Below are positions 41,028 through 41,041 of a stretch of DNA of 46,318 nucleotides, in pieces. Below the pieces are notes generated by a model that was not told the DNA's origin, made no database searches, and worked only from the letters and a program-made list of their open reading frames with translations. The stretch's first letter is position 1. Each line of letters starts with the position of its first letter. Position numbers and translations under genes: made by a program. The stretch is from Escherichia coli (lineage in GTDB: Bacteria; Pseudomonadota; Gammaproteobacteria; Enterobacterales; Enterobacteriaceae): NCBI RefSeq assembly GCF_003334315.1, contig NZ_QOWR01000036.1, one strand, 5' to 3'.

Positions 41028-41041
41028 TTGATCAAAAACAA
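41028..41041 (+). promoter_or_regulatory. candidate FNR site upstream of ydfZ
   Basis: ttgatcaaaaacaa resembles TTGAT-N4-ATCAA, about 90 bp upstream of the ydfZ start. Confidence 0.35.

What the first reader, a model, noticed from the sequence alone, without database searches (positions are those of the whole stretch)
41028..41041. FNR-like site upstream of ydfZ
ttgatcaaaaacaa matches the TTGAT-N4-ATCAA consensus with two mismatches in the second half-site, upstream of a gene I recall as anaerobically induced.
Basis: partly seen in the sequence, partly recalled or inferred. Interest (0 to 1): 0.15.

Follow-up and report, generated by a model that had tools for sequence, protein, structure and literature searches.

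The report
Known FNR site of ydfZ promoter

Summary
The sequence TTGATCAAAAACAA is at 41028-41041 as stated. It has one mismatch to TTGAT-N4-ATCAA, not two. The window is the E. coli rspR(ydfH)-ydfZ-ydfI locus. Counting motif matches does not beat chance: 3 matches against 2.5 expected. Context does. The site is centred exactly at -41.5 from the experimentally mapped ydfZ start site (window 41076). A weight matrix built without ydfZ gives it 14.2 bits, inside the range of ChIP-bound FNR sites. An equivalent site is kept in all 13 ydfZ promoters I compared across Enterobacteriaceae, each followed 21-22 nt later by a -10-like hexamer. The promoter core is invariant in about 5,300 E. coli genomes. 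The same 14-mer is already published as the top-scoring FNR site of ydfZ (Myers 2013, Table S6), with ChIP-chip and ChIP-seq occupancy, about 90-fold FNR dependence, use as an EMSA positive control, and routine use of PydfZ-lacZ as an FNR reporter. Verdict: real, correctly interpreted, already known, low interest. The one partly open point is an overlapping second dyad 6 bp upstream, GTGAG-CTTG-ATCAA, which also reads as the CRP-type TGTGA-N6-TCAAA. It is conserved across genera and binds CRP in vitro in published work. Its role in vivo is untested.

The parts
41028..41041 (.). FNR binding site, register B (TTGATCAAAAACAA), centred at -41.5. This is the flagged site.
   Evidence: Sequence. Leave-out PWM 14.2 bits. 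Published verbatim as the top-scoring ydfZ FNR site inside a ChIP-seq peak. Mean top-base frequency 0.98 in 10 genera and 0.92 in all 13 promoters.
41022..41035 (.). Overlapping second FNR-type dyad, register A (GTGAGCTTGATCAA), centred at -47.5.
   Evidence: 13.5 bits, third-best in the window. Listed as the second ydfZ site by Myers 2013 (score 13.18). It is the register predicted by Grainger 2006. Its strength varies between genera from 8.2 to 16.2 bits, and it is absent in four of them.
41021..41036 (.). CRP-type core TGTGA-GCTTGA-TCAAA, with the same centre as register A.
   Evidence: One mismatch to TGTGA-N6-TCACA; present at -47.5 in 9 of 13 orthologous promoters. TGTGA top-base frequency 0.94 in 10 genera. 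Published in vitro CRP binding: Genomic SELEX and a Footprint-seq footprint with Kd about 5.2 nM on exactly this sequence.
41013..41018 (+). A6 tract at -63 to -58, upstream of both dyads. Possibly a contact for the RNA polymerase alpha C-terminal domain (inference only).
   Evidence: Conserved in 10 of 13 promoters; top-base frequency 0.80 against 0.50 further upstream.
41064..41069 (+). -10 hexamer TATTTA (-12 to -7).
   Evidence: Placed from the mapped TSS. A -10-like hexamer (TATTTA, TATTAA, TATGTT or TAAAAT) starts 21-22 nt after the FNR 14-mer in the orthologues. No sigma70 -35/-10 pair is found by the consensus scan, as expected for an activator-dependent promoter.
41076..41076 (+). ydfZ transcription start site (G), giving a 47-nt leader.
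   Evidence: Kim 2012 TSS table: MG1655 1,627,192 on the + strand, 5'UTR 47 nt, promoter string ending ...TATTTATATTGCG. The offset window = MG1655(U00096.2) - 1,586,116 was checked against the site coordinates.
41123..41326 (+). ydfZ coding sequence (67 aa, PF14001). The Shine-Dalgarno sequence AAGGAG lies at 41108-41113.
41334..41354 (+). Intrinsic-terminator-like hairpin plus T-run after ydfZ.
40955..40978 (+). Terminator-like hairpin after rspR. It separates ydfZ from upstream transcription.

Best explanation
The flagged 14-mer is the operator of a class II FNR-dependent promoter. Without oxygen, dimeric [4Fe-4S]-FNR binds TTGATCAAAAACAA, centred at -41.5 and overlapping the position of the missing -35 element. 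From there it recruits and activates sigma70 RNA polymerase at the weak -10 (TATTTA), and transcription starts at window 41076. The product is a monocistronic ydfZ mRNA with a 47-nt leader. Shown here: the sequence, its matrix score, its exact spacing to the mapped TSS, its conservation, and the lack of a recognisable -35. Shown in the literature: FNR occupancy in vivo, binding in vitro, and strong FNR-dependent anaerobic expression. Inferred from what is established for class II FNR/CRP-family promoters: the contacts with sigma70 region 4 and the alpha subunit. Also inferred: the physiological logic that a putative selenium-delivery protein is made when the anaerobic selenoenzymes are made.
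For: The sequence and coordinates are confirmed. The leave-out PWM gives 14.2 bits, second-best in the window. The TSS is mapped at window 41076, which puts the centre at -41.5, matching Myers 2013 Table 1: 'ydfZ, 2 sites, -41.5'. No sigma70 -35/-10 consensus pair is found. The exact 14-mer is in Myers Table S6, flagged as lying under a ChIP-seq peak. A ChIP-chip peak is reported by Grainger 2006. The fnr-/WT expression value is 0.011. The ydfZ promoter is used as an EMSA positive control for FNR. PydfZ-lacZ is used as a class II FNR reporter. All 13 ydfZ promoters from different Enterobacteriaceae carry a 13.4-15.7-bit FNR site in this register. Three of them (L007, L010, L012) have upstream neighbour genes entirely different from those in E. 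coli, and a -10-like hexamer follows 21-22 nt downstream. The 73-nt promoter core is 100% identical in 5,296 of 5,323 E. coli records, against 1,717 of 3,900 for the adjacent 73 nt.
Against: Nothing contradicts it. Three caveats apply. A consensus count alone is not above chance. A better-scoring FNR motif in the same window (32036, inside marB) is published as unbound, so sequence score alone does not predict occupancy. My matrix was built from sites that Myers et al. had themselves selected with a matrix, so it is not fully independent. No published mutational dissection separating register B from the overlapping register A was found in the library available here; Kang 2005 and Mettert 2008 could not be read.
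Confidence: 0.96

Rival explanations
1. FNR acts through the overlapping register A (GTGAGCTTGATCAA, 41022-41035, centre -47.5) rather than through the flagged register B, or the two registers are used alternately.
For: Grainger 2006 predicted this register for the ydfZ ChIP-chip peak. Myers 2013 lists it as a second site with nearly the same score, 13.18 against 13.58. It scores 13.5 bits in my matrix. In Salmonella and Kosakonia it outscores register B, at 16.2 and 15.7 bits. Its left half TGTGA is conserved. The N4 spacer of register B, normally unconstrained, is conserved only in genera that have register A.
Against: Register A is weak (8.2-8.7 bits) in E. fergusonii, a C. freundii-like genome and P0065. 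It is absent in Pseudocitrobacter, Cronobacter, L010 and L012, while register B is kept in all 13. A centre at -47.5 is 6 bp, about half a helical turn, away from the class II optimum, whereas register B is exactly at -41.5 from the mapped TSS. The -10 spacing is conserved relative to B.
Confidence: 0.1
2. The element is a composite FNR/CRP operator. FNR activates from -41.5, while cAMP-CRP binds the overlapping TGTGA-N6-TCAAA at -47.5 in a mutually exclusive way and tunes anaerobic induction by carbon source, probably dampening it. This adds to the best explanation rather than replacing it.
For: The CRP core has one mismatch. ydfZ is a CRP target in Genomic SELEX. A Footprint-seq CRP footprint on exactly this sequence has an inferred Kd of about 5.2 nM. 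TGTGA is conserved at 0.94 across 10 genera, while the adjacent spacer columns are at 0.40. The two most divergent promoters (Cronobacter, P0086) lack the -47.5 site but carry a CRP core with one mismatch at -70.5/-71.5, against 0.13 such cores expected per region.
Against: All the CRP evidence is in vitro. No in vivo CRP occupancy or crp-dependent ydfZ expression was found. -47.5 is not a known activating position for CRP. The right half of the CRP core is constrained anyway because it lies inside FNR site B. TGTGA could equally be kept as an FNR register A half-site, since G at position 1 is common among bound FNR sites. The nine -47.5 sites share ancestry, so they are not independent observations.
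Confidence: 0.3
3. The match is a chance occurrence of an AT-rich near-palindrome with no regulatory role.
For: Consensus matches with at most 1 mismatch are no more frequent in the window than in shuffles. Another high-scoring motif in the window, inside marB, is not bound in vivo.
Against: The site is exactly at -41.5 from a mapped TSS. It is conserved in 13 of 13 orthologous promoters and across about 5,300 E. coli genomes. ChIP, EMSA and reporter data are published.
Confidence: 0.01

Closest known systems
Class II FNR-activated promoters of E. coli (for example dmsA, narG, nirB, nrfA, all listed at -41.5 in Myers 2013 Table 1)
   Same: A TTGAT-N4-ATCAA-type dyad centred at -41.5, no usable -35 hexamer, a sigma70 -10, anaerobic FNR-dependent activation, and an FNR ChIP peak. 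ydfZ is itself listed in that table.
   Different: Nothing essential differs. ydfZ is unusual only in having two overlapping dyads 6 bp apart (2 of the 32 category 1 operons listed have two sites). Unlike narG, nirB and nrfA, it needs no nitrate/nitrite co-regulator under the conditions tested, which is why it serves as a 'pure' FNR reporter; that last point is my own knowledge.
CRP (cAMP receptor protein) operators, TGTGA-N6-TCACA
   Same: CRP belongs to the same protein family as FNR and its sites have the same dyad geometry. The element 41021-41036 matches 9 of 10 core positions and binds CRP in vitro.
   Different: The site is centred at -47.5, not at a canonical activating position (-41.5, -61.5 or -71.5). 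It overlaps the FNR site. No in vivo CRP effect on ydfZ was found.
Unbound high-scoring FNR motifs (for example the one within marB, window 32036-32049)
   Same: The same or a better match to the FNR matrix (17.5 bits).
   Different: It is intragenic, has no promoter geometry, and is published as lacking a ChIP-seq peak. This shows that promoter context, not score, is what makes the ydfZ site functional.

Membership tests
Class II FNR-dependent promoter | An inverted repeat resembling TTGAT-N4-ATCAA, with a matrix score in the range of bound sites | tested here: met
   9 of 10 consensus positions. 14.2 bits in the leave-ydfZ-out matrix, against a training range of 11.4-20.6. Published PatSer score 13.58, above threshold.
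Class II FNR-dependent promoter | Site centred near -41.5 relative to an experimentally mapped TSS | tested here: met
   TSS at MG1655 1,627,192 = window 41076. The site centre is 41034.5, which is -41.5. This agrees with Myers Table 1.
Class II FNR-dependent promoter | A poor or absent -35 element, so the promoter depends on the activator | tested here: met
   No sigma70 -35/-10 pair is found in 40850-41450. The -35 position is occupied by the A-rich right end of the FNR site.
Class II FNR-dependent promoter | FNR occupancy of the site | not testable with these tools
   Published: ChIP-chip, ChIP-seq with the site under the peak, and use as an EMSA positive control.
Class II FNR-dependent promoter | FNR-dependent, anaerobically induced transcription | not testable with these tools
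   Published: fnr-/WT value 0.011; '+' for anaerobic expression and sigma70 occupancy; PydfZ-lacZ reporters.
Class II FNR-dependent promoter | Conservation of the site and its spacing in orthologous promoters (supporting evidence, not a defining feature) | tested here: met
   13 of 13 promoters carry a 13.4-15.7-bit site, with a -10-like hexamer 21-22 nt downstream. The core is invariant in E. coli.
CRP-regulated promoter | A TGTGA-N6-TCACA core | tested here: met
   TGTGAGCTTGATCAAA has 1 mismatch.
CRP-regulated promoter | cAMP-CRP binding | not testable with these tools
   Published in vitro only: Genomic SELEX and Footprint-seq with Kd about 5.2 nM.
CRP-regulated promoter | Site at a canonical activating position (-41.5, -61.5 or -71.5, plus or minus 1) | tested here: not met
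   The centre 41028.5 is at -47.5 in E. coli and eight other genera. Only Cronobacter and P0086 have a CRP core at -70.5/-71.5.
CRP-regulated promoter | crp- or cAMP-dependent expression in vivo | not tested
   No report was found.

The most novel reading that the evidence does not exclude
The ydfZ operator is a conserved composite of two overlapping dyads. FNR at -41.5 and cAMP-CRP at -47.5 bind in a mutually exclusive way, so that carbon status gates one of the strongest FNR-dependent promoters. The comparative data here are new as far as I could find in this library: the TGTGA half-site is conserved, the FNR spacer is conserved only where the second dyad exists, and the CRP core has moved to about -71 in Cronobacter-type promoters. 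The in vitro CRP binding is already published.
Probability: 0.3. Interest if true: 0.25.

Novelty: already known. Interest (0 to 1): 0.06.

Why it matters
For the scan, the value is mainly as a calibration point. A reader working from sequence alone correctly recovered a textbook class II FNR operator. The case also shows that a motif count or score alone (3 found against 2.5 expected, and a better-scoring unbound motif in marB) cannot separate real from spurious sites. Promoter geometry and a phylogenetic footprint can. Biologically, ydfZ is the promoter widely used as a read-out of FNR and Fe-S cluster status. If the overlapping CRP site works in vivo, PydfZ-lacZ reporter values would depend on carbon source as well as on oxygen and Fe-S status, which users of that reporter would want to know.

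Tried and rejected
(1) Consensus counting with shuffles had no discriminating power. (2) The sigma70 promoter scan found nothing; I read this as activator dependence, not as absence of a promoter. (3) The Rfam scan of the whole window found nothing at ydfZ; the only hit is STnc560 at 34643-34856. (4) Folding the 47-nt leader plus the start of the CDS gave z = -0.54, so no significant structure. I dropped the idea of a leader riboswitch or attenuator and kept only the small 5'-terminal hairpin as a side note. (5) Kang 2005 (PMC545700), the original ydfZ/FNR array paper, is not held, so I could not check for primer extension or in vitro transcription data. Mettert 2008 was not found either. (6) The Salmonella FabR ChIP paper that mentions 'ydfZ' actually concerns ddg/yfdZ with the name misspelled, so it is irrelevant. 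(7) The search for ydfZ plus selenium returned nothing useful on YdfZ function. (8) I did not use the expensive genome contigs, metagenome or structure tools, because 12 orthologous loci from exact-protein look-ups were enough for the footprint.

Full report
**Observation.** Window 41028-41041 reads TTGATCAAAAACAA. Against TTGAT-N4-ATCAA, the left half-site is perfect. The ORF 95 bp downstream (41123-41326, 67 aa) is ydfZ. The 501-bp region matches 5,415 of 5,426 complete E. coli genomes over at least 80% of its length, and is annotated rspR / ydfZ ('putative selenium delivery protein YdfZ') / ydfI. The protein carries Pfam PF14001. Window coordinates equal MG1655 (U00096.2) coordinates minus 1,586,116, which I verified on three published positions.

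**Is it more than chance?** By motif count, no. There are three sites with at most 1 mismatch in the window, against 2.51 +/- 1.64 in shuffles. I then built a symmetrised weight matrix from the 61 ChIP-bound FNR sites of Myers 2013 Table S6, leaving out both ydfZ entries.
- The flagged site scores 14.2 bits. That is second-best in the window and inside the training range of 11.4-20.6 bits, in its lower-middle part (39 of 61 sites score higher).
- About 0.48 sites this good are expected per random 46-kb window. That is roughly 0.002 for the 176-bp rspR-ydfZ spacer (my arithmetic).
- The best-scoring motif in the window (32036-32049, 17.5 bits) lies inside marB and is published as not bound in vivo. 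Score alone is therefore not sufficient.

**Promoter geometry.** Kim 2012 mapped the ydfZ TSS at MG1655 1,627,192, with a 47-nt leader and a promoter string ending ...GAGTATTTATATTGCG. That is window 41076.
- The flagged dyad (centre 41034.5) is therefore at exactly -41.5, the canonical class II position, as Myers 2013 Table 1 states.
- The -10 hexamer is TATTTA (41064-41069).
- There is no -35/-10 consensus pair, as expected for an activator-dependent promoter.
- Terminator-like hairpins after rspR (40955-40978) and after ydfZ (41334-41354) frame a monocistronic unit.

**Conservation.** I retrieved 12 orthologous ydfZ loci: E. fergusonii, three Citrobacter, Salmonella, Enterobacter, Kosakonia, Cronobacter, Pseudocitrobacter and three others. 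Three of them (L007, L010, L012) have upstream neighbours entirely different from those in E. coli.
- All 13 promoters, counting the window, have a 13.4-15.7-bit FNR site in the equivalent register, 76-104 bp upstream of the ATG.
- Each site is followed 21-22 nt later by a -10-like hexamer: TATTTA, TATTAA, TATGTT or TAAAAT.
- In a site-anchored ungapped alignment, the 14-mer has a mean top-base frequency of 0.98 in the 10 alignable genera and 0.92 in all 13. The surrounding spacers are at 0.40-0.60.
- Within E. coli, the 73-nt core 41008-41080 is 100% identical in 5,296 of 5,323 matching records. The adjacent 73 nt are identical in only 1,717 of 3,900.

**Literature.** The site is already known.
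- Myers 2013 (PMC3688515) Table S6 lists 'TTGATCAAAAACAA, ydfZ, 1627144, PatSer 13.58' under an FNR ChIP-seq peak. The main text cites it as an example of a strong match, with the spacer misprinted as aaaa.
- Table 1 of that paper puts ydfZ among the operons directly activated by FNR, at -41.5, with increased anaerobic expression and sigma70 occupancy.
- The expression value listed for b1541 is 0.011, which I read as the fnr-/WT ratio.
- Grainger 2006 found the ChIP-chip peak.
- The ydfZ promoter is used as an EMSA positive control for FNR.
- PydfZ-lacZ is a standard class II FNR reporter.
- PydfZ also appears among the promoters listed for an engineered butanol-producing E. coli strain.

**Mechanism.** [4Fe-4S]-FNR dimers bind the dyad at -41.5 and activate sigma70 RNA polymerase at a promoter that lacks a -35 element. 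The contacts with RNA polymerase are inferred from what is established for class II FNR promoters; they are not shown here. A link between anaerobiosis and a selenium-delivery protein fits the anaerobic expression of selenoenzymes. That link rests on my own knowledge and the RefSeq annotation, and was not tested.

**The only wrinkle.** A second dyad overlaps the first, 6 bp upstream: GTGAGCTTGATCAA (41022-41035, centre -47.5).
- It scores 13.5 bits. It is Myers' second ydfZ site and the register Grainger 2006 predicted.
- Read with one more base on each side, it is a CRP-type core, TGTGA-N6-TCAAA.
- ydfZ is a CRP target in Genomic SELEX. A 2026 Footprint-seq preprint reports a CRP footprint on exactly this sequence, with an inferred Kd of about 5.2 nM.
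- My comparison adds three points. TGTGA is conserved at 0.94 in ten genera. The normally unconstrained N4 spacer of the FNR site is conserved only where this second dyad exists. The Cronobacter-type promoters lack the dyad but have a CRP core at about -71.
- Register A is dispensable for keeping an FNR site: it is weak or absent in seven of the 13 promoters, while register B is present in all. I therefore keep register B as the activating FNR site.
- I rate a functional CRP/FNR overlap at about 0.3. No in vivo CRP data were found.

**Verdict.** The feature is already known, and interest is low.

Noticed in passing
window 41021-41036: A CRP-type core, TGTGA-GCTTGA-TCAAA, overlaps the FNR site and is centred at -47.5. 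It is conserved across 9 genera. Published work shows it binds CRP in vitro (SELEX; Footprint-seq Kd about 5.2 nM), but no in vivo role is known.
   Followed up: partly
window 32036-32049: TTGATTTAAATCAC is the best FNR-matrix hit in the window (17.5 bits) and is identical to the bound ompW site. It lies inside marB, and Myers 2013 Table S6 lists it as lacking an FNR ChIP-seq peak, in a Fis-enriched region.
   Followed up: partly
window 34643-34856 (-): A full-length Rfam match to STnc560, an Hfq-binding sRNA (281 bits). Its position corresponds to the yneM/mgrR locus named in the Myers 2013 supplementary tables.
   Followed up: no
window ~20968-20981 and ~28855: The Footprint-seq preprint lists sub-nanomolar 'novel' CRP sites at yneE (Kd 0.7 nM) and ydeA (Kd 0.5 nM). 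By coordinate conversion both fall inside this window. The first coincides with my matrix hit GTGATTACGATCAC.
   Followed up: no
window 41076-41090: The ydfZ mRNA begins with a small hairpin, GCCCG-UUACG-UGGGC, right at its 5' end. It is conserved in Escherichia and Citrobacter, and Citrobacter has an extra 14-nt insertion that forms a longer hairpin. The fold of the whole leader is not significant (z = -0.54).
   Followed up: partly
window 41013-41018: An A6 tract at -63 to -58 is conserved in 10 of 13 ydfZ promoters. That is where the RNA polymerase alpha C-terminal domain would sit upstream of a class II activator. This is speculative.
   Followed up: partly
L010:1-3204: A ydfZ homologue sits in a prophage- or mobile-element-like context (RusA, DUF968/RecA-dependent nuclease, IstB, Rrf2 neighbours). 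It still carries its own strong FNR site, TTGATGAAACTCAA (15.7 bits), 78.5 bp upstream of the ATG.
   Followed up: no
protein P0043: One YdfZ homologue (70% identity) is named 'selenoprotein YdfZ' by NCBI, which suggests Cys/Sec variation in this family.
   Followed up: no
window 9785-9798: CTGATCATTATCAA is the third near-consensus FNR match in the window (1 mismatch, 9.8 bits). Its gene context was not examined.
   Followed up: no
L002:1501-1854: The E. fergusonii ydfZ gene is called as 117 aa in the public record. The conserved [10 protein letters not shown] start is 50 codons further in, so the annotated start appears to be over-extended across the promoter region.
   Followed up: partly
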